The notes: a model not told the origin generated them from the sequence alone. A stretch of 64,000 nt of DNA from an uncultured Gammaproteobacteria bacterium (GCA_964467155.1 CAYXNZ010000001.1:4070-68069), one strand, 5' to 3'; shown: positions 4,413-47,846, numbered from the stretch's first letter. Made by a program: numbers and translations.

Positions 4413-7139
4413 ATGCCAAAGAAGAAAGAAAAACAACCAAAACCAAAACCAAAAAAGAAAATTGTAAAACAGCCAGCCAAGAAAAAAGTAGTAAAACCAG
4501 TGGCTAAAAAAACAGTATCAACAAAACCAGTTACTAAAAGTACCAAGAAAGAAAAACCAGAGATAATAAAAGAGAAAACAGAAACAAAGAAAAAGGCTAT
4601 TGAAATAGACAAAAAATTAGTTGCTGAAGAAATAACTGAAGAAGCAAAAGAAGGTACAGTTAGTCGAATCGTAAATGGCCGAGAAAAAACTGAATATGGA
4701 TTAGTTCAATCCCAACCAATCGTTGAAGAAATGAGACGGTCTTATTTGGATTATGCTATGAGTGTTATTGTGGCTCGTGCTTTGCCTGATGTTCGAGATG
4801 GACTTAAACCAGTTCATCGTAGAATACTTTATGCTATGTGGAGTGTTGGTTTGAGAGCCAATGCTAAGTTTCGTAAGTCAGCTACAGTTGTTGGTGAAGT
4901 TTTAGGTAAATATCATCCACATGGCGATTCAGCTGTTTATGAATCAATGGTTAGAATGGCACAGGATTTTTCCATGAGACATCCTTTAGTTAGGGGTCAA
5001 GGTAACTTCGGTTCAATGGATGGTGATAGAGCAGCGGCTATGCGTTATACCGAAGCCAAACTAGCACCGATTGCTGAAGAGATGTTGTTTGATATAGAAA
5101 AAAATACAGTTGATTTTTCTCCAAACTTTGATGGATCTCACCAAGAGCCAAGAGTTTTACCAGCAAAATTACCTAATCTGCTTTTGAACGGAGTAATGGG
5201 TATTGCAGTCGGTATGGCAACTAATATTCCGCCTCATAATTTGAGAGAATTAGTTGGGGCAGTTATTTATTTATTAGAAAAACCTGAAGCAACAGTTGAG
5301 GAATTAATCCAATTTGTCAAAGGACCTGATTTTCCAACTGGAGGAATTATTTATAGTCAGAATGACATTAGACAGGCTTATTCAACTGGTCGAGGTGGAG
5401 TTGTTATTCGTGGACAAGCGGAGATAGTAGAAGCAAAAGCAGGTGGTTTTCAAATTATTATTTCCGAGATTCCTTATCAAGTCAATAAGGCGAATTTAGT
5501 TGAAAAGATAGCTGACTTGGTCAAGAATAAAAAATTAGAAGGCATAAGAGATTTGCGTGACGAATCAGATAAGGATGGTGTACGAGTAGTTATTGATCTC
5601 AAAAGAGATGCTTTTCCAAAAAAGATATTAAATAGTTTATACAAACAGACTCAGTTGCAGGAAACTTTTCATTTCAATATGTTGGCCTTGATTGATGGTA
5701 TTCAGCCAAAGGTTTTGAATTTGAAAATGATTTTGGAAGAATATATTAAACATCGAGAAGAAGTCGTGAAACGTCGTACTCAGTTTGATTTAGATAAAGC
5801 GAAAAGCAGAGCGCATATTTTAGAAGGTTTAATGATTGCTTTAAATAATATTGATGCGGTTATAAAAACTATTAAAGCTTCCAAAGATCGTGAAATTGCT
5901 AAAGTAAATTTAATAAAAAAGTTTAAATTAACTGAGAGACAGGCAATCGCTATTTTAGAAATGAAGCTAGCCACTTTGGCCAACTTAGAAAGACTAAAAA
6001 TAGAGAACGAATTAAAAGATAAAAAAGTTTTAATTAAAGAATTAGAAGCAATATTGAAATCAACTAAGGAGATGAGAGCTATTATTAGAACAGAAATAGA
6101 AGCTTTAGTTGAAAAATTTGGCGAGGATAGACGAACCAAAGTAATTGCTCATGGAGTCAAAGATTTTTCGGTTGAAGATTTAGTACCAAACGAAGAAACA
6201 GTTGTAGCTATGACTCGTGATGGTTATATTAAACGAGTACCAACAGATACTTTCAAAGTTCAAGGACGAGGTGGTAAAGGCGTGATCGGTCTAACGACCA
6301 AAGAAGAAGATATGGTTATGTTCTTGTTTACAACAATGACTCATAATGACATTTTATTCTTTACTACTAGCGGACGAGTTTTCCAATTAAAAGCTTATGA
6401 AATACCGCAGACAACGAGAACTGCTAAGGGAACACCAATCGTAAACTTTTTACAGTTATCTGGTGGAGAGAGTATTTCAACCATTTTGCCACTAGATAAG
6501 ATTTCAAAGAGTAAATACCTTTTCTTTGCAACTGAAAAAGGATTAGTTAAGAAAGTAAAGATTGAAGCTTTTGACAATGTCCGACGTTCAGGTTTAATTG
6601 CTATCAAAATAAAAGATAATGATAGATTGATTTGGACAAAACCAACTGATGGCAATGATCATATTGAATTAGTGACAGCTGAAGGTCAGGCAATTCGTTT
6701 CAAGGAAGCCAATGTTAGAGATATGGGTCGTGGTGCAGCTGGTGTCAAAGGAATTCGTTTGAAAAAGAAAGAGGACGCAGTTGTTGGCATGGGAGTTATC
6801 AAAAACGATAAGGAAAAAATGAAAAAATATCAGGTCTTAGTTATTACTGATAATGGTTTTGGCAAAAGAACACCATTAAATTTATACAAAGTTCAAGGAC
6901 GAGGTGGTTCAGGAGTAAAGACATCCAAGGTTACAACTAAAACTGGCCGATTGACTCAAGCCTATGTTGTCAATACGGAAACAATGAAAGATCAGGATTT
7001 AATAATAATCTCTGAAAAAGGCCAAGTTATTAGATTGCCTTTCAAAGCAGTTAATCAACTTGGGCGTGATACTCAAGGGGTTAGACTGATGAGATTTAAA
7101 GATAAAGACGATAAGGTAGCTTGTGTTACTTGGGTATAA
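4413..7139 (+). CDS. gyrA: DNA gyrase subunit A with a lysine-rich N-terminal extension
   Basis: Contains [39 protein letters not shown] and the catalytic AAMRYTE. C-terminal beta-pinwheel repeats (QGRGGKG twice) are present. Confidence 0.95.
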
Positions 7140-10275: not shown

Positions 10276-10361
10276 TTGGGGTGCTTTATTCCCCGCCAGT
10301 CGGCGGGGTAAACGCTACTAAGCTCAGGCCTGTCCCGCAGTATTGCGGGAACGCACCCCAA
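10276..10361. repeat. cluster of GC-rich nested hairpins (REP-like)
   Basis: An outer stem ttggggtgc/gcaccccaa encloses hairpins ccccgcc-agt-ggcgggg and tcccgca-gtat-tgcggga. Another hairpin (ctactttttg/caaaaagtag) lies just upstream. Confidence 0.6.
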
Positions 10362-10448
10362 ACCCCATGAATATTTTTATACCAAAATTACTATAAAATT
10401 AAAATAAAAGAATTAAGTAAATTTTTATTAAAATAGTTTTTTTTATTT

Positions 10449-11892: not shown

Positions 11893-14064
11893 ATGTCTTT
11901 AAATTTTTACATCGTTTCACATTTTGCGATCGGAACAATTGCTTTTTTCCTTGGTTTTTTAATATTAAAAAATAATTGGAAAAATATTATCAATTTAACA
12001 TATTTTTTGTTAAGTACCAGTATCGCGATTTGGGCAATTTCATACGGCATATGGCTACTATCCAGTAGTCAAGAGATTGCTTTGTTCTGGGCAAGGACTC
12101 TAAATTTTGGTTCTTCATTAATCCCTGTTTTTTATTTACATTGGATAATAAGTGTTTTAAAGAAAGATAATCGTAAAATTTTAACTTTTTATTATTTTTT
12201 TACTTTAGTTTTTTTAATTTTTGGGTATAGCAAAGTATTTATTTCTGGCACACAGCAAATATTGCAATTTTCGTTTTTTCCACAGGCAAATTGGTTGTAT
12301 GTTGTATGGCTAATTTTTGGTTGGGGTTTTGTTATCATTTATACTCAAATTTTATTATTAAAAGAAATATCAAAATCTAATGGAAACTATAGACTTCAAA
12401 TTATCTATATTTACATAGGTTCATTGATTGGTTTTGTAGGTGGGTCAACAAATCATTTATTGATGCTTGGCATCAATTGGTTTCCGCCCATAGGTAGTCC
12501 TCTTGTAGTGGCTTATCCTATAATTTTTGCTTATGCCATAATTAAACATCGTCTCATGGATATTAAATTAGTGATGAGACGGTCATCGGTTTTTTTAATG
12601 AGTTTGTCAATTGTTTTATTGATTGCGATTGGAGTTAAATATTTAGTGGCGATTTATTTTATTGAAGTGTCAGTGTTGCTTGATTTTTTGATTTTAATTG
12701 TCGCGGTTTATTATTTTCCAATACTCAGAAAATATTTTTACAAAGTAGCTAATAAATATTTATTTTCTTCAATGTATGATAGTCGCGAAGTGATTGCCGA
12801 GTTGTCAGAAAAATTGCGTTTTACGCTTGAGATTTCATCAATTTACAAATATATTTCTGAAACACTAGAGCATGCTTTTCATTCTACAGCTATTGGTGTT
12901 TTAATTTTTAATGAAAAAAAAGGTGAGTATGTTGTGAAACATAATCATGGTTTTGCTCTCAATGGTAATAAGTTTTTTGCTGGTGATAAAAAATTGTATA
13001 AGATGTTTATTGAAAAAAATAAATCAATTGTAACTGAAGAAATACGGCAAAGTAATTTACCTCTCGGCATTAGTGGCAATAAGACGATTAAGTTGTTAGA
13101 AAAAATGAAAGTAGATATTTTAACACCATTAAATATTAAAGACAGGACAATTGGTCTGATTGCTTTGGGTTCAAAAGAATCTCGTGATATGTATAATGAT
13201 GAGGATTTACAGGTTTTGGAAGTGATCGGGGCGCAGGCGGCGATTGCCATTGAAAATGCTATTTTGTATGAAGAACAAAAGAATTTTAATATTAAATTAG
13301 AAAAGGAAGTTGAAAAAGCAACCCATGATTTGAAGAAAGCTAATAAACAGTTAATTAAACTTGATGAAGCCAAGTCAGAGTTTATTTCTATTGCTTCACA
13401 TCAGCTTCGTACGCCGTTGACGGTGGTTAAGGGATATATTTCTATGATTCTGGAAAAGAATTTTGGCGAGGTAACGTCAAAGATGGGAGACCCACTGGAA
13501 AAAATATATGAATCAAATGACAGATTAATTAAATTAGTAGAGAATTTACTCAATGTTTCCCGCATTGAATCTGGTAGAATGCAATTTGAAGCACAGGATA
13601 TGCATTTAGAAGATTTGGTAGCTAGTGTGGCTGAAGAATTAACATCCACTGCGAAGAAGAAAAAAATTAAATTAATTTTGAAAAATTCTAAAAAGGTTTT
13701 GCCAAAAGTAAAGATTGATGAGGAAAAGATTAGACAGGTAGTAATGAATCTGATTGATAATGCCATTAAATATACCAAGGAAGGTAGTGTGACAGTTGAA
13801 GTTAAAAAGAGAGATGATAATATTAGATTTTGCGTGGCAGATTCTGGCATGGGAATTGATCCAAAAGATCAGATTAATTTATTTAAAAAATTTTATCGGG
13901 GCGAAGGTACAGTTCTGATACACACTGAAGGTACAGGTTTAGGATTATATGTTGCTCGCAATATGCTCACCATGCACAAAGGTAAGATTTGGGCAGAAAG
14001 TAAAGGGGTTGGTAAAGGCAGTAAGTTTTGTTTTGAGTTACCGATTGAGACAATTAAGAATTAG
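11893..14064 (+). CDS. sensor histidine kinase (7TM N-terminal domain, GAF, HisKA, HATPase_c), no adjacent response regulator
   Basis: It has multiple N-terminal TM helices, a GAF-like segment (IGLIALGSKE), an H-box SHQLRTPLT, an N-box NLIDNAIKYT, and G-boxes DSGMGI / GTGLGL. Confidence 0.9.
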   Translation: MSLNFYIVSHFAIGTIAFFLGFLILKNNWKNIINLTYFLLSTSIAIWAISYGIWLLSSSQEIALFWARTLNFGSSLIPVFYLHWIISVLKKDNRKILTFYYFFTLVFLIFGYSKVFISGTQQILQFSFFPQANWLYVVWLIFGWGFVIIYTQILLLKEISKSNGNYRLQIIYIYIGSLIGFVGGSTNHLLMLGINWFPPIGSPLVVAYPIIFAYAIIKHRLMDIKLVMRRSSVFLMSLSIVLLIAIGVKYLVAIYFIEVSVLLDFLILIVAVYYFPILRKYFYKVANKYLFSSMYDSREVIAELSEKLRFTLEISSIYKYISETLEHAFHSTAIGVLIFNEKKGEYVVKHNHGFALNGNKFFAGDKKLYKMFIEKNKSIVTEEIRQSNLPLGISGNKTIKLLEKMKVDILTPLNIKDRTIGLIALGSKESRDMYNDEDLQVLEVIGAQAAIAIENAILYEEQKNFNIKLEKEVEKATHDLKKANKQLIKLDEAKSEFISIASHQLRTPLTVVKGYISMILEKNFGEVTSKMGDPLEKIYESNDRLIKLVENLLNVSRIESGRMQFEAQDMHLEDLVASVAEELTSTAKKKKIKLILKNSKKVLPKVKIDEEKIRQVVMNLIDNAIKYTKEGSVTVEVKKRDDNIRFCVADSGMGIDPKDQINLFKKFYRGEGTVLIHTEGTGLGLYVARNMLTMHKGKIWAESKGVGKGSKFCFELPIETIKN

Positions 14065-14070
14065 AAATTA

Positions 14071-14104
14071 ACCCGCCTGCCAAGCAAGTTCGCGAGCGGG
14101 CAGG
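14071..14104. repeat. family-2 palindromic element just past the kinase stop codon
   Basis: acccgcctgccaagcaagttcgcgagcgggcagg is about 90% identical to 47589-47621 inside rsmA. It is flanked by a 13-nt direct repeat aattaagaattag (14052-14064 and 14106-14118). Confidence 0.75.
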
Positions 14105-14146
14105 AAATTAAGAATTAGGCGAGGATTATTCTCGTTTTTTTTATCC

Positions 14147-14300
14147 CCCCCCCTCCCTAACCCTCCCCCGCAATAAATTGCAGGAGAGGGAACTATATAT
14201 TTTTTTGAAATTATTTGATATCTATCTATTTTATATTATGCGTATTCCCTCTCCCGTGAGGAACGAGCGGGGGGGGGGTTAGGGAGGGGGGATCCAGAAA
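14147..14300. repeat. long GC-rich inverted-repeat element with an AT-rich core
   Basis: cccccccctccctaaccctcccccgc ... gcggggggggggttagggagggggg form arms of about 25 nt. Inner arms are aggagagggaa / ttccctctccc. The element ends in ggatccagaaaggaatgaca, resembling family-1 ends. Confidence 0.7.
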
Positions 14301-15571: not shown

Positions 15572-15734
15572 TGTCATCTCGAGAAGACTCATCCTTATAA
15601 AGGATGAGTTGACGAGAGATCTCTGAAATTAGTAAAAACGTAAATTATTGTAAATTGATTTTAAATAAACAAGTTGATTTAATGAGATCTTTCCTCGCCC
15701 GTCCTTTGTTAAGTCCGGGGTCGTCAAGATGACA
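15572..15734. repeat. family-1 long-form element (163 nt) with tgtcat/atgaca termini
   Basis: tgtcatctcgagaagact[hairpin]gacgagagatctct ... atctttcctcg[hairpin]tcgtcaagatgaca. Its end modules are shared with 18750-18927. Confidence 0.75.
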
Positions 15735-18749: not shown

Positions 18750-18927
18750 TGTCATCTCGAGAAGACTAATTTGTTAGTCGACGAGAGATCTCTAGAATTG
18801 AGTTAAAAGTTAATTGTTATAAAATGGTTTTAAATATTTGTGATTTCTTTTAGTATTTCTTTATTGATAATTTAATTATATTTCCCGAAATCTTTCCTCT
18901 CTCTATCTGACTATCGTCAAGATGACA
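18750..18927. repeat. family-1 long-form element (178 nt)
   Basis: tgtcatctcgagaagact...gacgagagatctct ... atctttcctc...tcgtcaagatgaca. It is a homologue of 15572-15734 with a different AT-rich core. Confidence 0.75.
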
Positions 18928-19083
18928 AAGATAATTAGTTCGGCCCCTAAACCCCATGGATATTTTTATACAATATTACAATTAAAAAAGAAATAAAATA
19001 ATATATAAGAGAACAGAGGTTGTTATTTGATAAAAATAAGTATTTAATATATAATTTTATAGTAATTATTAGCCTATAAATAA

Positions 19084-44761: not shown

Positions 44762-45742
44762 TTACAGATTGGTTAATAGCCACGAATTATCGTCTTGTTT
44801 TTCTACATAAAAATATATCGATACTTCATAACCTCCGAGAGAAAAATATACTTCGTTAGAGTATGTTTTTTTGTTTTCAGTTGATTCAGTCAATGTGGCG
44901 CCAGACAAAATATTACCTAAAGTTAGCCTACCTTCTGCATCTAAAAATTCCATTGTATATTCTACCGCTTTTTGCATACTGGGCGTGAAATAACTAAGTG
45001 TCTTTTCAGTATTACCAGTTCGAATAGCTGAAGCAGCTGATGACATAATAGAACTGGAAGTAATCTGGGTTTGGCAAGTGGAACAAGTATTTGGAATTTG
45101 TACTGATTCAGATTGAACCTCGGTTTGTAGGTAACCAATAACAAGTTGATAAAGATTAGAATTGGTAATGCCTAAACCAAGATTTTGCATAACAGAAAAA
45201 GCATCTGCCGGACGACCTAAATAATATCTTTTGTTATCAATTGGGTTGATATACCAAGCTTCGCCATTTGATTCAACTTGCAAAAATATTTTTCCTGAGT
45301 TTTCTAAAGAAAAATTATTATCTATTGGTAAGACTCCATTAGACAAGGGAGAGTAATTATTCTCAATTTCAATTTTGTCATTATAGCCATCATTATCAGT
45401 ATCAATATTGTTTGGATTCGTGCCAATAGCTTCCTCGAATCGGTTAGTCAAACCATCGTTGTCGTTGTCTAAATCATCATAATCAATCAGACCAATCGAT
45501 ATTTTATTTAAATCGTTATTGGTTATGCCAATACCAAGATTTTTCATTAAAGCAAAAGCATCTGCTGGACGACCCATAGAGTATCGTTGATAATTGGACG
45601 GATTAACATACCAAGCTTCGCCATTTGACTCAATTTGTAATAATATTTTACCAGAAAGCGTTTCAGCTAAAGTTTCTGCCGCTTGCATGTTCGGTGCAAT
45701 AAACAGAAATAACAGGATGATAATTGTAATATATTTTTTCAT
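44762..45742 (-). CDS. secreted protein with a duplicated ~60-aa module and thrombospondin-type-3-like Ca-binding repeats
   Basis: It has a signal peptide. GKI(L/F)LQ(I/V)ESNGEAWY(V/I)NP...GRPADAF...LG(I/L)GITN occurs twice, and DNDNDGLTN / DTDNDGYND repeats are present. Confidence 0.6.
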   Translation of the reverse strand: MKKYITIIILLFLFIAPNMQAAETLAETLSGKILLQIESNGEAWYVNPSNYQRYSMGRPADAFALMKNLGIGITNNDLNKISIGLIDYDDLDNDNDGLTNRFEEAIGTNPNNIDTDNDGYNDKIEIENNYSPLSNGVLPIDNNFSLENSGKIFLQVESNGEAWYINPIDNKRYYLGRPADAFSVMQNLGLGITNSNLYQLVIGYLQTEVQSESVQIPNTCSTCQTQITSSSIMSSAASAIRTGNTEKTLSYFTPSMQKAVEYTMEFLDAEGRLTLGNILSGATLTESTENKKTYSNEVYFSLGGYEVSIYFYVEKQDDNSWLLTNL

Positions 45743-45745
45743 GAA

Positions 45746-46420
45746 TTATTCTAATAAAAATTTTTTAAATTCGTTTTTTTGTTGTTTTGAATCGTTTATA
45801 ATTATATTTGTTAATTTTTCGTATTCTTTTGTGTTTTTAAATTGATCGAGAACAATATTTTTATTACAGAGATTACCTTTTCTTAAATTTAAATAATCCA
45901 TATAACTAGACCACGGCCAACTTGTAGCTTTAGTAATATTGTGAATTTCCGAATTGCCGTTAATGTAGCAAGAGACTTTTTGTAATTGACCGTCTGATTT
46001 TATTTCAACAGCTTTAAATGTTCCCTGAAACAATGAGCCTGATCGATTATGTTTGTTGTTAAAATATCTTGTGTAGCCATAGCCTAATTTGTGCATAAAT
46101 TTTGTTATTCCCTCGTTGATAGATTGCTGGACTAATAAATGGAAATGATTTGGTAAGAGCGAATAGCAAATTATTTTTACCAAAGGAATCTTTTTAGAAG
46201 CTAAGCTACTACAAAAAGAATGTTTTTGTAGTAGCTTAGCTTCTTTATCTTTTAATTGTTTTAAGCGATAAATGCTTTCGATTGGATTAATATTATTAAA
46301 TTCACGCAAGCTAATTAAAAATCTTAAATAATCATTTTTATCAAGAAAAATGTTACGTTTATCTACGCCTCGGTTAAAAATATGATAATAGTTATCTGTT
46401 TGAAATTTAATTTTTCTCAT
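45746..46420 (-). CDS. IS200/IS605-family Y1 (HUH) transposase, RAYT-like
   Basis: The start is moved to MRKIKFQ (46420). It has the HUH motif LLPNHFHLLV, a C-terminal Tyr context (SCYINGNSEIH), and WPWSSY. An in-frame hairpin repeat lies at 46196-46244. Confidence 0.75.
   Translation of the reverse strand: MRKIKFQTDNYYHIFNRGVDKRNIFLDKNDYLRFLISLREFNNINPIESIYRLKQLKDKEAKLLQKHSFCSSLASKKIPLVKIICYSLLPNHFHLLVQQSINEGITKFMHKLGYGYTRYFNNKHNRSGSLFQGTFKAVEIKSDGQLQKVSCYINGNSEIHNITKATSWPWSSYMDYLNLRKGNLCNKNIVLDQFKNTKEYEKLTNIIINDSKQQKNEFKKFLLE
46196..46244. repeat. family-3 hairpin (22-bp perfect stem) inside the RAYT-like gene
   Basis: agaagctaagctactacaaaaa / gaatg / tttttgtagtagcttagcttct. It has the same arms as 49149-49193. 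Confidence 0.9.
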
Positions 46421-46443
46421 CGCAAGACGTTTGGTTGAATTTT

Positions 46444-46452
46444 TGCTATAAT
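46444..46452 (+). promoter_or_regulatory. extended -10 element TGcTATAAT
   Basis: tgctataat lies 26 nt upstream of ATG 46478. Confidence 0.35.
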
Positions 46453-46477
46453 CTAAGTATAACATTAAATAAAAAAT

Positions 46478-46946: not shown

Positions 46947-47846
46947 ATGGATATATATCAACAAACATTAGAACTGTGTAAACAGTATAATATTAAACCT
47001 GCTCGTTCCAAAGGGCAGAATTTTTTAATTAAAGAAGAAGTTTACAATAATATTATTGAAGCAGCTGATTTGAAAAAAGATAATATTGTTTTGGAGATTG
47101 GACCTGGCTTGGGTTTTTTAACAACCAAATTAGCTGATAAAGCAAAACAGGTAATAACAATAGAACTAGATGATAAATTAGCAAAGTATTTAAAGTTTAG
47201 TTTGGAGATACAAAAAATAAAGAATGTTGAAATTATAAACGAGAATATTTTAGATATTGAAATTGAAAAGTTGAAAGTTAAAAATTTTGAATATAAGATT
47301 GTTGCTAATTTGCCATATAATATCACTTCTATTTTTTTGCGCAAATTTTTATCTTTAAAAAATAAACCAAACACAATGGTTTTGATGTTGCAAAAAGAAG
47401 TAGCAGAGAGAATTTTAGCCAAACCAGGCAAAATGAGTTTACTGGCTGTGTCAGTTCAATATTATGCTGAGCCAGAAATAATTGACTATGTCCCAGCTAA
47501 TGCTTTTTGGCCAGAGCCTCAAGTAGATAGCGCAATAGTTAAGTTGAAAGTCAAAAGTCCCTCCAATTCGGCGGGCAGGCAAAAGTCACCCGCCTGCCAA
47601 GCAAGCTTGCGAACGGGCAGGAAAGTTAAACAGGTTGGTGTGGATAAGGAAAGAGATTTTTTTAGATTAATAAAGTTTGGTTTTAGCTCAAAACGAAAGA
47701 TGTTGAAGAATAATTTATCTGTTGGGTACAAAATAACCCAAGAATTAGCAGAAAATAAACTAAAACAAGTAGGTTTTGACCCAAAAATTAGAGCACAAGA
47801 ATTGTCAGTTGAAGGTTGGGTTAAATTGTTTGGAGAATTTAATTGA
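46947..47846 (+). CDS. rsmA: 16S rRNA (adenine1518/1519-N6)-dimethyltransferase RsmA/KsgA
   Basis: The start is moved to MDIYQQT (46947). SKGQNFL, the motif I sequence LEIGPGLGFLT, NLPYNITS and PQVDSAIV are present. It contains a 25-codon repeat-derived insertion. Confidence 0.9.
   Translation: MDIYQQTLELCKQYNIKPARSKGQNFLIKEEVYNNIIEAADLKKDNIVLEIGPGLGFLTTKLADKAKQVITIELDDKLAKYLKFSLEIQKIKNVEIINENILDIEIEKLKVKNFEYKIVANLPYNITSIFLRKFLSLKNKPNTMVLMLQKEVAERILAKPGKMSLLAVSVQYYAEPEIIDYVPANAFWPEPQVDSAIVKLKVKSPSNSAGRQKSPACQASLRTGRKVKQVGVDKERDFFRLIKFGFSSKRKMLKNNLSVGYKITQELAENKLKQVGFDPKIRAQELSVEGWVKLFGEFN
47547..47630 (+). repeat. family-2 element inserted in frame in rsmA
   Basis: acccgcctgccaagcaagcttgcgaacgggcagg (47589-47621) matches 14071-14104. 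It is bounded by aaagtcaaa / aaagttaaa exactly 75 nt apart, and encodes SPSNSAGRQKSPACQASLRTGRKVK. Confidence 0.75.

What the first reader, a model, noticed from the sequence alone, without database searches (positions are those of the whole stretch)
47547..47630. A different palindromic element (family 2) adds exactly 25 codons to rsmA/ksgA
Seen: 47589-47621 (acccgcctgccaagcaagcttgcgaacgggcagg) is about 90% identical to the intergenic copy at 14071-14104. The stretch is far more GC-rich than the flanks. It is bracketed by aaagtcaaa (47547) and aaagttaaa (47622), exactly 75 nt apart, and encodes SPSNSAGRQKSPACQASLRTGRKVK. It lies after the conserved PQVDSAIVKL, in the linker before the C-terminal helical domain. 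Inference: this is an in-frame insertion with a target-site-duplication-like repeat, and a second independent element family shows the same coding-tolerant behaviour.
Basis: partly seen in the sequence, partly recalled or inferred. Interest (0 to 1): 0.65.

Follow-up and report, generated by a model that had tools for sequence, protein, structure and literature searches.

The report
Two tiny hairpin repeats inside rsmA
An essential ribosome-methylase gene of an AT-rich Patescibacteria (CPR) bacterium carries two GC-rich hairpin repeats (21 and 33 bases) in frame in a floppy inter-domain loop; this resembles known selfish palindromes in genes of Rickettsia and other bacteria, but the family is undescribed, leaves no target duplication and sits in 7-base tandem arrays.

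Summary

**Confirmed**
- The core (47588-47621) matches 14071-14104 at 31/34 positions.
- It is 65-70% GC in a gene that is 29% GC.
- It lies in the RsmA inter-domain linker.

**Corrected, using two orthologues with an empty site (L019, L022)**
- The gain is +57 nt (19 codons), not 75 nt (25 codons).
- It consists of two separate in-frame insertions: a 21-nt hairpin (47559-47579) and a 33-nt hairpin (47589-47621). Nine native bases lie between them.
- The "target-site duplication" (aaagtcaaa / aaagttaaa) is part of a native 7-nt tandem array. The array is already present in the empty sites.

**The family**
- The 33-nt element has the form CCCGCCTGCC-N15-CGGGCAGG and is open in all six reading frames.
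- It recurs in frame in the tRNA-dihydrouridine synthase (dus) genes of two other CPR contigs, and in phage-like contigs.
- One copy is nested inside a relative.
- In all three filled/empty comparisons the difference is exactly 33 nt.
- All five 33-nt copies outside the multi-copy phage-like contigs lie in 7-nt-period arrays (P ≤ 0.0013 each).

**Classification**
- It fails the defining tests for GTAG/CGTC REPs, for RPEs and for MITEs.
- The best guess is a REP-like element moved as single-stranded DNA. A Y1 transposase gene lies 1.1 kb away, but this link is unproven.

The parts
46947..47846 (+). rsmA/ksgA coding sequence (299 aa), which hosts the insertions
   Evidence: The ORF is. Pfam RrnaAD scores 1.2e-54. 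6452 homologues were found, the best named ones being Patescibacteria RsmA. The AF2 model has pLDDT 88.9.
47559..47579 (+). Element A: a 21-nt GC-rich hairpin insert, CCCTCCAATTCGGCGGGCAGG. It encodes PSNSAGR (residues 205-211).
   Evidence: It is absent from the empty-site orthologues L019 and L022. A 22-nt relative, CCCGCCAATTTAGGCGGGCAGG, occurs in the same genome outside the window (L024 9296-9317). It shares both termini with element B.
47580..47588 (+). Native spacer CAAAAGTCA. It is homologous to GGA AAG TCA of the orthologues and is one unit of the heptanucleotide array.
   Evidence: DNA alignment with L019 and L022.
47589..47621 (+). Element B: a 33-nt hairpin insert, CCCGCCTGCC-AAGCAAGCTTGCGAA-CGGGCAGG. 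It encodes PACQASLRTGR (residues 215-225).
   Evidence: In L019 the flanks AAAGTCA|AAAGTTAA are contiguous. It matches the copy at 14072-14104 at 30/33 positions. It is open in all six frames. It has a 6-bp stem.
14072..14104 (+). Intergenic copy of element B. It lies 7 nt after the stop codon of a histidine-kinase gene and ahead of a terminator-like hairpin.
   Evidence: It is identical in an independent JGI contig, L048.
14052..14118 (+). Heptanucleotide array (AATTARR, about 5 units) that the intergenic copy interrupts. It includes the exact 13-nt direct repeat AATTAAGAATTAG at 14052 and 14106.
   Evidence: D2, D6. With the element removed, lag-7 autocorrelation is 0.72 (P = 0.0002).
47541..47632 (+).
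   Evidence: With A and B removed, lag-7 autocorrelation is 0.90. The empty sites score 0.66 (L019) and 0.76 (L022), against a background of 0.28 ± 0.10.
47257..47283 (+). A second heptanucleotide array (TTGAAAG × 3.9) in rsmA. It lies at the other variable loop (after residue ~111), where other CPR orthologues carry hairpin inserts. It is empty here.
   Evidence: TRF. Insert hot spots in the RsmA alignment. L022 carries CCTGCC..GGCAGG and CCCCCTTGGCAAGGGGG hairpins at this loop.
45746..46465 (-). Y1/HUH (IS200-like, RAYT-like) transposase homologue. It is the candidate mobiliser, by inference only.
   Evidence: PF01797 Y1_Tnp. NCBIfam REP_Tyr_transpos scores 32 bits, below the cut-off of 80. 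HFH and YINGN motifs are visible in the sequence. It is syntenic and 68% identical in L019.

Best explanation
**Shown**
- rsmA of this Patescibacteria genome has acquired two members of one family of very short GC-rich hairpin repeats. Their termini are 5'-CCCGCC(TGCC) ... (G)CGGGCAGG-3' and the middle is variable.
- The two members are a 21-nt copy (A) and a 33-nt copy (B).
- Both sit in the disordered linker between the methyltransferase domain and the C-terminal helical domain.
- Each was inserted precisely, without target-site duplication, into a pre-existing 7-nt tandem array.
- The gene stays intact for three reasons. The insert lengths are multiples of three. The GC-rich units have no stop codon in any of the six frames. 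The site is a surface loop that already varies in length across CPR RsmA proteins.
- The same 33-nt unit occurs in several other places: after a gene stop in this genome, in frame at one linker codon of dus in two other CPR contigs, in phage-like contigs, and once nested inside the loop of a 36-nt relative.

**Inferred**
- The units are REP-like selfish or neutral DNA that moves as single-stranded hairpin DNA.
- They integrate where the target can expose single-stranded loops. Such targets are slipped heptanucleotide arrays, hairpin loops, and the anticodon and T loops of pseudo-tRNA copies.
- The most likely agent is an HUH/Y1 tyrosine transposase, such as the RAYT-like gene 1.1 kb upstream.
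- Selection then keeps only copies in tolerant linkers.

**My confidence by part**
- About 0.85 for the anatomy: two TSD-less in-frame insertions of one repeat family.
- About 0.35 for the Y1/single-stranded-DNA mechanism.
For: **Insertion status**
- Empty-site orthologues L019 (syntenic, 78.5% nt identity over rsmA) and L022 read ...AAAAGT GGA AAG TCA|AAA GTT AAT.... The window's flanks of B (AAAGTCA | AAAGTTAA) are contiguous there.
- Net gain is +57 nt = 21 + 33 + one codon.

**Family and spread**
- Window copy at 14072-14104.
- L010, in frame in dus as NPPAKQAGERAG, which is a different frame from rsmA.
- L030 dus, same codon and same termini, but the loops are only 5/15 alike.
- L032 in a phage-like contig, 32/33 identical to L030.
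- Multi-copy 33- and 36-nt relatives in other viral contigs.
- A second A-type copy in the same genome, L024.

**No target-site duplication**
- The dus filled and empty forms differ by exactly 11 codons. The empty site in L136 is a perfect (CAATTTC) × 4.4 array.
- Nested case: L037 equals the intact 36-nt element of L044/L033 plus exactly 33 nt.

**Array association**
- Joined flanks of all five 33-nt copies outside the multi-copy phage-like contigs have lag-7 autocorrelation of 0.66-0.90, against a background of 0.28 ± 0.10. P ≤ 0.0013 for each.
- In the window TRF lists ten period-7 arrays, each roughly 15-50 nt long.

**Tolerance by the protein**
- All six frames are open.
- In the AF2 model, residues 207-232 have pLDDT below 50, between strand 195-202 and helix 234-245. 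The rest of the model averages about 95.
- B. subtilis KsgA aligns to residues 6-203 and 229-294 only.
- 34 of 119 CPR RsmA orthologues have linkers at least 8 aa longer than the median. These are enriched in G/A/R/P.

**Fixation**
- The sequence is identical in independent ENA, Logan and JGI assemblies.

**Candidate enzyme**
- A Y1_Tnp gene lies at 45746-46465.

**Loop targets**
- Small GC-rich inserts sit in the anticodon-loop and T-loop positions of pseudo-tRNA-Arg repeats. The true tRNA lacks them.
Against: - No link between the Y1 gene and the repeats was shown. The gene is not flanked by copies, and its syntenic orthologue in L019 sits in a locus with no copy.
- The NCBIfam RAYT model is hit far below its cut-off.
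- The elements lack the GTAG/CGTC tag of REPs known to be cut by RAYTs (sequence; PMC3733652).
- The hairpin is weak and no more stable than shuffles.
- Only 2 B copies and 1 A copy lie in 64 kb, and the whole genome was not available, so copy number is unknown.
- The array association could come from selection rather than targeting. Linkers tolerate junk, and an interruption may stabilise a slippage-prone array.
- No presence/absence polymorphism was found within the population, so recent mobility in this genome is unproven.
- Shorter relatives (L014, L031, L024) are not in 7-nt arrays.
Confidence: 0.6

Rival explanations
1. The element is a MITE-like transposon moved by a DDE transposase, and it creates a target-site duplication (aaagtYaaa) on insertion.
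For: - Direct repeats flank every 33-nt copy: 6/7 in rsmA, exact 8- and 13-nt repeats at copy 1, 11 nt in L010 and 12 nt in L030.
- Exact shared words of at least 11 nt across a junction occur at only 0.07% of random sites.
Against: - The repeats are already present and adjacent in empty sites (L019, L022, L136).
- Filled and empty alleles differ by exactly 33 nt. No extra heptamer unit is present.
- A 33 + 7 nt event would break the reading frame.
- The nested copy has no duplication.
- There are no terminal inverted repeats beyond an internal 6-bp stem.
Confidence: 0.05
2. No dedicated transposase is involved. The hairpins are copied between loci by replication template switching, by slippage, or by short-patch recombination at tandem arrays and hairpins. 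Such DNA stalls replication forks and exposes single strands.
For: - All five 33-nt copies lie in 7-nt arrays, and the phage-like relatives lie in 9-nt arrays.
- The flanks next to the two window copies are themselves similar (AAAnTnA ... AAA), extending the match to 43 nt.
- L029 shows a breakpoint exactly at the end of element A.
Against: - The array units differ between loci (TCAAAAG, AATTAAG, TTTCGAA, TGAATAA), so there is little homology to prime switching.
- The insert boundaries are identical to the base in unrelated contexts, including a hairpin loop with no array. This looks enzyme-defined.
Confidence: 0.2
3. The association with linkers and arrays is produced by selection rather than targeting. 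Insertions land anywhere, and only those in disordered linkers survive. An interruption of a frameshift-prone heptanucleotide array may even be favoured because it stabilises the array. The hairpin may also pause translation between domains.
For: - The RsmA and Dus linkers are length-variable across CPR and carry many unrelated inserts.
- The insert is predicted to be disordered.
- The elements are fixed in all sampled populations.
Against: - The intergenic copy (14072) and the phage intergenic copy (L032) are under no coding constraint, yet they also sit in 7-nt arrays.
- This idea explains retention, not origin, so it complements the best explanation rather than replacing it.
Confidence: 0.12
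4. It is not an insertion. It is either an ancestral lineage-specific linker peptide or an assembly artefact.
For: The RsmA linker is variable in CPR.
Against: - The nearest orthologue (71% aa identity, syntenic) lacks it.
- The same DNA occurs in non-homologous places.
- The sequence is identical in at least four independent assemblies.
Confidence: 0.02

Closest known systems
REPs (repetitive extragenic palindromes), including intragenic REPs, and their RAYT transposases (Di Nocera et al. 2013, PMC3733652)
   Same: - Units are 20-40 nt, GC-rich imperfect hairpins with conserved stems and variable loops.
- They lie mostly just downstream of genes.
- Some copies sit inside genes and encode 10-30 extra residues, sometimes at the same site in orthologues.
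- A vertically inherited Y1 transposase homologue is present in the genome.
   Different: - There is no GTAG or CGTC tag.
- The Y1 gene is not flanked by copies, so there is no REPtron.
- The NCBIfam RAYT model is hit only at 32 of 80 bits.
- The host is a Patescibacteria genome with 33% GC.
- Copies sit in heptanucleotide arrays.
- Copy number is unknown.
Rickettsia palindromic elements (RPE; reviewed in PMC10969869)
   Same: - Palindromic repeats inserted in frame in unrelated housekeeping genes of a reduced AT-rich genome.
- The inserts are compatible with protein fold and function.
- tRNA- and rRNA-modification enzymes are among the hosts.
   Different: - RPEs are about 100-150 bp and encode a conserved peptide in one frame.
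- These units are 21-36 nt, are read in at least two frames, and have a variable middle.
- The taxon is different, and no sequence relation was tested.
GC clusters and repetitive hairpin elements of AT-rich mitochondrial genomes (yeast GC clusters, from my own knowledge; sponge RHE, PMC2800124)
   Same: Short GC-rich hairpins scattered in very AT-rich DNA. They occur in several families, are mostly intergenic, and occasionally lie within coding regions.
   Different: They occur in organelles rather than bacteria. Their mechanisms are equally unresolved. No heptanucleotide-array context has been reported, to my knowledge.
IS200/IS605-type single-strand transposition by HUH/Y1 transposases (from my own knowledge)
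   Same: - Integration leaves no target duplication.
- It depends on DNA hairpins.
- It needs single-stranded targets.
   Different: - Those elements are at least 600 bp, with distinct left and right hairpins and a fixed 4-5 nt target.
- Here there is a single 33-nt hairpin, and five sites reveal no clear target word (left flanks end in TCA, TAA, TAA, GAA, AGA).

Membership tests
REP / REP-RAYT (REPtron) system | A short (20-40 nt) GC-rich imperfect palindrome that is repeated in the genome | tested here: met
   - 33-nt and 21-22-nt units, about 70% GC, with a 6-bp stem.
- Two B copies and one A copy in the window, plus A-type copies in the flanking contig L024.
REP / REP-RAYT (REPtron) system | A GTAG or CGTC tetranucleotide tag at one end (PMC3733652) | tested here: not met
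   The ends are CCCGCC... and ...GGGCAGG. Neither tag is present in the element or in the adjoining bases of any copy.
REP / REP-RAYT (REPtron) system | A RAYT gene flanked by the repeats | tested here: not met
   - The Y1_Tnp ORF (45746-46465) abuts its neighbouring ORFs, with no GC island or copy beside it.
- The nearest copy is 1.1 kb away inside rsmA.
- The orthologous locus L019 has the gene but no copy.
REP / REP-RAYT (REPtron) system | High copy number (tens to hundreds per genome) | tested here: inconclusive
   - The genome is not among the GTDB representatives.
- Only about 64 kb plus about 17 kb of flanks could be read.
REP / REP-RAYT (REPtron) system | The transposase binds and cleaves the single-stranded repeat | not testable with these tools
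   This needs biochemistry.
Rickettsia palindromic elements (RPE) | In-frame insertion into unrelated protein-coding genes at sites compatible with the fold | tested here: met
   - rsmA.
- dus in L010 and L030.
- In each gene the insertion lies in the linker between two domains.
Rickettsia palindromic elements (RPE) | An element of about 100-150 bp encoding a conserved peptide | tested here: not met
   - The units are 21-36 nt.
- The same unit is read as PACQASLRTGR in rsmA and as PPAKQAGERAG in dus.
MITE (DDE-transposase-dependent) | A target-site duplication generated on insertion | tested here: not met
   Three filled/empty comparisons differ by exactly 33 nt (52/58/80; 70).
MITE (DDE-transposase-dependent) | Terminal inverted repeats | tested here: not met
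   The 5' end is CCCGCCTGCC and the reverse complement of the 3' end is CCTGCCCG. Only an offset 6-bp stem is present.
IS200/IS605-like single-strand (HUH/Y1) mobilisation | Integration without target duplication, dependent on a hairpin | tested here: met
   - No TSD.
- Stems are conserved while loops vary.
- One compensated stem variant, CCTACC/GGTAGG, is seen in L031.
IS200/IS605-like single-strand (HUH/Y1) mobilisation | A fixed 4-5 nt target immediately 5' of the element | tested here: inconclusive
   The left flanks are ..AAGTCA..AATTAA..TATTAA..TTCGAA and ..TGAAGA. All five end in A, but no common word emerges and the sample is only n = 5.
IS200/IS605-like single-strand (HUH/Y1) mobilisation | Strand bias relative to the replication direction | not testable with these tools
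   - This needs a complete genome.
- Both window copies are on the + strand.
- All five DNA-level coding copies are in the sense orientation.

The most novel reading that the evidence does not exclude
The family CCCGCCTGCC-N(15-18)-CGGGCAGG is a previously undescribed class of minimal mobile hairpin of 33-36 nt. It is shared by Patescibacteria and phage-like contigs. It integrates to the base, without duplication, specifically into DNA that can extrude single-stranded loops: heptanucleotide or nonanucleotide tandem arrays and the loops of other hairpins. Because it is 3n long and stop-free in six frames, it acts as a 'coding-neutral' insert that repeatedly lengthens inter-domain linkers of CPR housekeeping enzymes such as RsmA and Dus. 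The heptanucleotide arrays found inside these coding linkers would be its landing pads, or possibly a by-product of its activity.
Probability: 0.3. Interest if true: 0.7.

Novelty: new variant of a known kind. Interest (0 to 1): 0.5.

Why it matters
- CPR/Patescibacteria proteins often carry unexplained extra loops. This case traces one such loop, base by base, to the insertion of tiny repeated hairpins.
- The same inter-domain linkers in RsmA and Dus are hit again and again across the radiation.
- The work provides three things:
  - a concrete family motif that can be searched genome-wide;
  - clean filled/empty site pairs showing integration without duplication;
  - an unexpected and statistically strong link to 7-nt tandem arrays inside coding DNA.
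- If the link reflects targeting, it offers a testable handle on how REP-like elements choose sites and on what Y1 transposase homologues do in reduced genomes.
- If the link reflects selection, it shows that interruption of slippage-prone arrays can be tolerated or favoured in essential genes.
- For annotation, it warns that GC-rich, G/A/R/P-rich loops in CPR proteins may be repeat-derived.

Tried and rejected
**Scans and look-ups that did not extend the copy count**
- The genome-contig scan with CCCGCCTGCCAAGCAAGNNNGCG returned only two chance hits in GC-rich genomes. Even the window's own copies were absent, so this genome is not among the GTDB representatives and a genome-wide count was impossible.
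- The metagenome scan gave 14 hits. Only L010 is a full copy, L014 is a 25-nt relative, and the rest are chance hits in GC-rich DNA.
- Walking beyond the window ends added about 17 kb. It contained no further B copy and only A-type copies.
- Contigs from other samples were searched for presence/absence polymorphism. All were identical.
- One dus empty-site locus (P0182) returned no DNA.

**Ideas tested and dropped**
- A 7-nt or 13-nt TSD, rejected using the empty sites.
- The upstream GGCGGGCAGG as a 'partial copy' of B. It was reinterpreted as a separate 21-nt family member after a 22-nt relative was found in L024.
- A known RNA family: there was no Rfam hit at gathering score in the window, nor at E ≤ 1 around the site.
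- A stable hairpin: the fold is no better than shuffles.
- Linking the Y1 gene to other element-bearing contigs: tblastn found it only in orthologous loci.

**Not attempted**
- A peptide search for translated copies. The conserved peptides are only 5-6 residues long, which is below what the word index and E-values can resolve.

**Literature**
- Searches found no report of such elements in CPR.

Full report
**Context.** The window is 33% GC. Its proteins match Patescibacteria/CPR sequences. The ORF at 46947-47846 is RsmA/KsgA (Pfam RrnaAD, 1.2e-54).

**Checking the observation.**
- It matches 14071-14104 at 31/34 positions, with no such match in 100 shuffles. Ungapped similarity runs to 43 nt at 88%.
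- The segment 47559-47621 is 65% GC, and the rest of rsmA is 29%.
- B. subtilis KsgA (6ifs) aligns to residues 6-203 and 229-294 only.
- An AlphaFold model built on 53 sequences has pLDDT 88.9. Residues 207-232 fall below 50, between strand 195-202 and helix 234-245.
- The location in the inter-domain linker is therefore confirmed.

**What the empty sites show.** The closest orthologue is P0002 (71% aa identity). It lies in a syntenic locus, L019 (Y1_Tnp, a 154-aa ORF, rsmA, a TSP3 protein), and lacks the segment. So does L022. At the DNA level:
- L019 reads AAG TTA AAA GTT AGA AGC GGA AAG TCA AAA GTT AAT.
- The window reads AAG TTG AAA GTC AAA AGT [CCCTCCAATTCGGCGGGCAGG] CAA AAG TCA [CCCGCCTGCCAAGCAAGCTTGCGAACGGGCAGG] AAA GTT AAA.
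- The flanks of the 33-nt block (AAAGTCA | AAAGTTAA) are contiguous in L019.
- The net difference is 57 nt (19 codons): 21 + 33 + one further codon downstream. It is not 75 nt.
Lag-7 autocorrelation is 0.66 in L019 and 0.76 in L022. It is 0.90 in the window once both inserts are removed, against a background of 0.28 ± 0.10.
- There is therefore no target-site duplication.

**Two elements, one family.**
- The upstream 21-nt block is not a broken copy of the 33-mer. A 22-nt relative, CCCGCCAATTTAGGCGGGCAGG, lies in the same genome just outside the window (L024).
- That relative is inserted in the anticodon-loop position of degenerate tandem copies of the 3' part of tRNA-Arg(GCG). The true tRNA lacks it.
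- Short and long forms share the termini 5'-CCCGCC ... (G)CGGGCAGG-3'.

**Other copies of the 33-mer.**
- The metagenome scan found L010 (28% GC). Its 33-mer is in frame in a tRNA-dihydrouridine synthase gene...PWIFRQFSIIN-PPAKQAGERAG-FQLSIKE. This is a different reading frame from rsmA.
- An alignment of 120 Dus orthologues shows that most lack it. P0134 (L030) has a 33-mer at the same codon, with identical termini but a loop only 5/15 alike.
- The filled and empty dus forms differ by exactly 11 codons. The empty site in L136 is a perfect (CAATTTC) × 4.4 array within the coding sequence.
- A scan of viral contigs found L032, which is 32/33 identical to L030 and lies between two phage-like genes.
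- The same scan found phage-like contigs with many 33- and 36-nt relatives.
- In L037 the 33-mer sits inside the loop of the 36-mer. That 36-mer is intact in L044 and L033, and the difference is again exactly 33 nt.
- All copies are stop-free in all six frames.

**Target context.**
- The joined flanks of all five 33-nt copies found outside the multi-copy phage-like contigs (the two in the window, the two dus copies and L032) show strong 7-nt periodicity (0.66-0.90, P ≤ 0.0013 each).
- In the window TRF lists ten period-7 arrays, each roughly 15-50 nt long.
- Three of the four junctions tested share exact words of 11-13 nt across the junction. Only 0.07% of random junctions do so.
- The phage-like copies sit in 9-nt arrays (CACAGAG units).
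- Shorter relatives (L014, L031, L024) are not in 7-nt arrays. However, the L024 inserts and the nested copy are in hairpin loops.
- The common theme is DNA able to expose single-stranded loops. That reading is an inference.

**Generality.**
- CPR RsmA has two variable loops, one after residue ~111 and one at the linker.
- 34 of 119 orthologues have linkers at least 8 aa above the median, and these are enriched in G/A/R/P.
- L022 carries CCTGCC..GGCAGG and CCCCCTTGGCAAGGGGG hairpins in frame in the first loop.
- P0067 carries the same 24-aa element in both loops.
- In the window the first loop is itself a TTGAAAG × 3.9 array.

**Mechanism.**
- Shown: insertion is precise, leaves no TSD, and involves a repeated unit with conserved ends and a variable middle. 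Insert lengths are 3n in coding DNA. The site is disordered. The insert is fixed in at least four independent assemblies.
- Inferred: mobilisation as single-stranded hairpin DNA by an HUH/Y1 transposase.
- A candidate gene (PF01797, with HFH and YINGN motifs) lies at 45746-46465 and is syntenic in L019.
- The candidate is weak. It is not flanked by copies, it scores far below the RAYT cut-off, and the hairpin is weak.
- Rival explanations are template switching at arrays and selection-only accounts of the array association. The DDE/TSD model and the 'ancestral peptide' model are contradicted.

**Comparison with known systems.**
- Intragenic REPs are documented. They encode 20-30 residues, sometimes lie at the same site in orthologues, and often occur in nucleic-acid enzymes (PMC3733652). 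RPEs are also documented (PMC10969869).
- This family behaves like them but fails their defining tests:
  - It has no GTAG/CGTC tag and no REPtron.
  - It does not have the 100-150 bp size of RPEs.
  - It has neither the TIRs nor the TSD of MITEs.
- No paper on such elements in CPR was found, and no Rfam family matches.
- I rate it a new variant of a known kind, with moderate interest. The heptanucleotide-array context and the clean TSD-less filled/empty pairs are the new points.

Noticed in passing
window 47257-47283; L136 10016-10050; L030 ~4745-4830: Heptanucleotide (period-7) tandem arrays lie inside coding DNA at variable loops and linkers of rsmA and dus. This period is not a multiple of three, so gain or loss of one unit would shift the reading frame of these housekeeping genes.
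   Followed up: partly
window 14148-14169 and 14270-14291: A 22-nt C-rich/G-rich inverted repeat (CCCCCCTCCCTAACCCTCCCCC / GGGGGGGGGTTAGGGAGGGGGG, 95% complementary) has arms 100 nt apart. Nested within it is a 10-nt perfect inverted repeat (14183 / 14245).
   Followed up: no
window 10277-10368; L024 7840-7898 and 8293-8363; window 10356-10413 vs 18945-19002; 15607-15667 vs 18776-18836: A further repeated double-hairpin unit (CCCCGCCAG..GGCGGGGTAAAC..GTCCCGC..GCGGGA) and two 58-61-nt intergenic repeats at 76-77% identity. They have no Rfam match.
   Followed up: partly
L024 9042-9400 (same genome, about 7 kb beyond the right end of the window): tRNA-Arg(GCG) is followed by three degenerate tandem copies of its 3' part. 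Two of the three carry a 22-nt GC-rich insert in the anticodon-loop position, and all three carry a 19-nt GC-rich insert in the T-loop position.
   Followed up: partly
L029 (ENA ERZ27315742 contig), breakpoint corresponding to window 47580/47581: In this contig rsmA is joined to unrelated AT-rich DNA exactly after element A. The unrelated DNA begins with another hairpin (CTCCTTTGGAAGGAG). This could be a rearrangement at the repeat or an assembly chimera.
   Followed up: partly
P0067 (RsmA orthologue), both variable loops: The same 24-residue element (VIPAKAGILGDQ.MQDSCLRRND, a translated palindrome) is present twice in one protein, once in each hot spot. P0003, P0009, P0010, P0047 and P0118 carry another palindrome-derived peptide (HPVKSRQAGI..LPKAKLFHGV).
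   Followed up: no
L022 2380-2660: An intergenic cluster of GC-rich hairpins. Two copies of CCCCTCCTTGCTAAGGAGGGGTTAGG..GAGGTAAATTC differ by an 18-nt CCTGCCCGCGCAGGCAGG hairpin nested in one of them.
   Followed up: no
window 1-64000: ARAGORN finds no tRNA and no Rfam family reaches its gathering score anywhere in the 64 kb. Genes are almost all on the + strand outside 33-39 kb.
   Followed up: no
window 45134-45298 and 45491-45655: A 165-nt internal direct repeat (74% identity) lies inside the ORF 44762-45742 (-), just downstream of the Y1 transposase homologue. The ORF matches the TSP3-like protein of L019.
   Followed up: no
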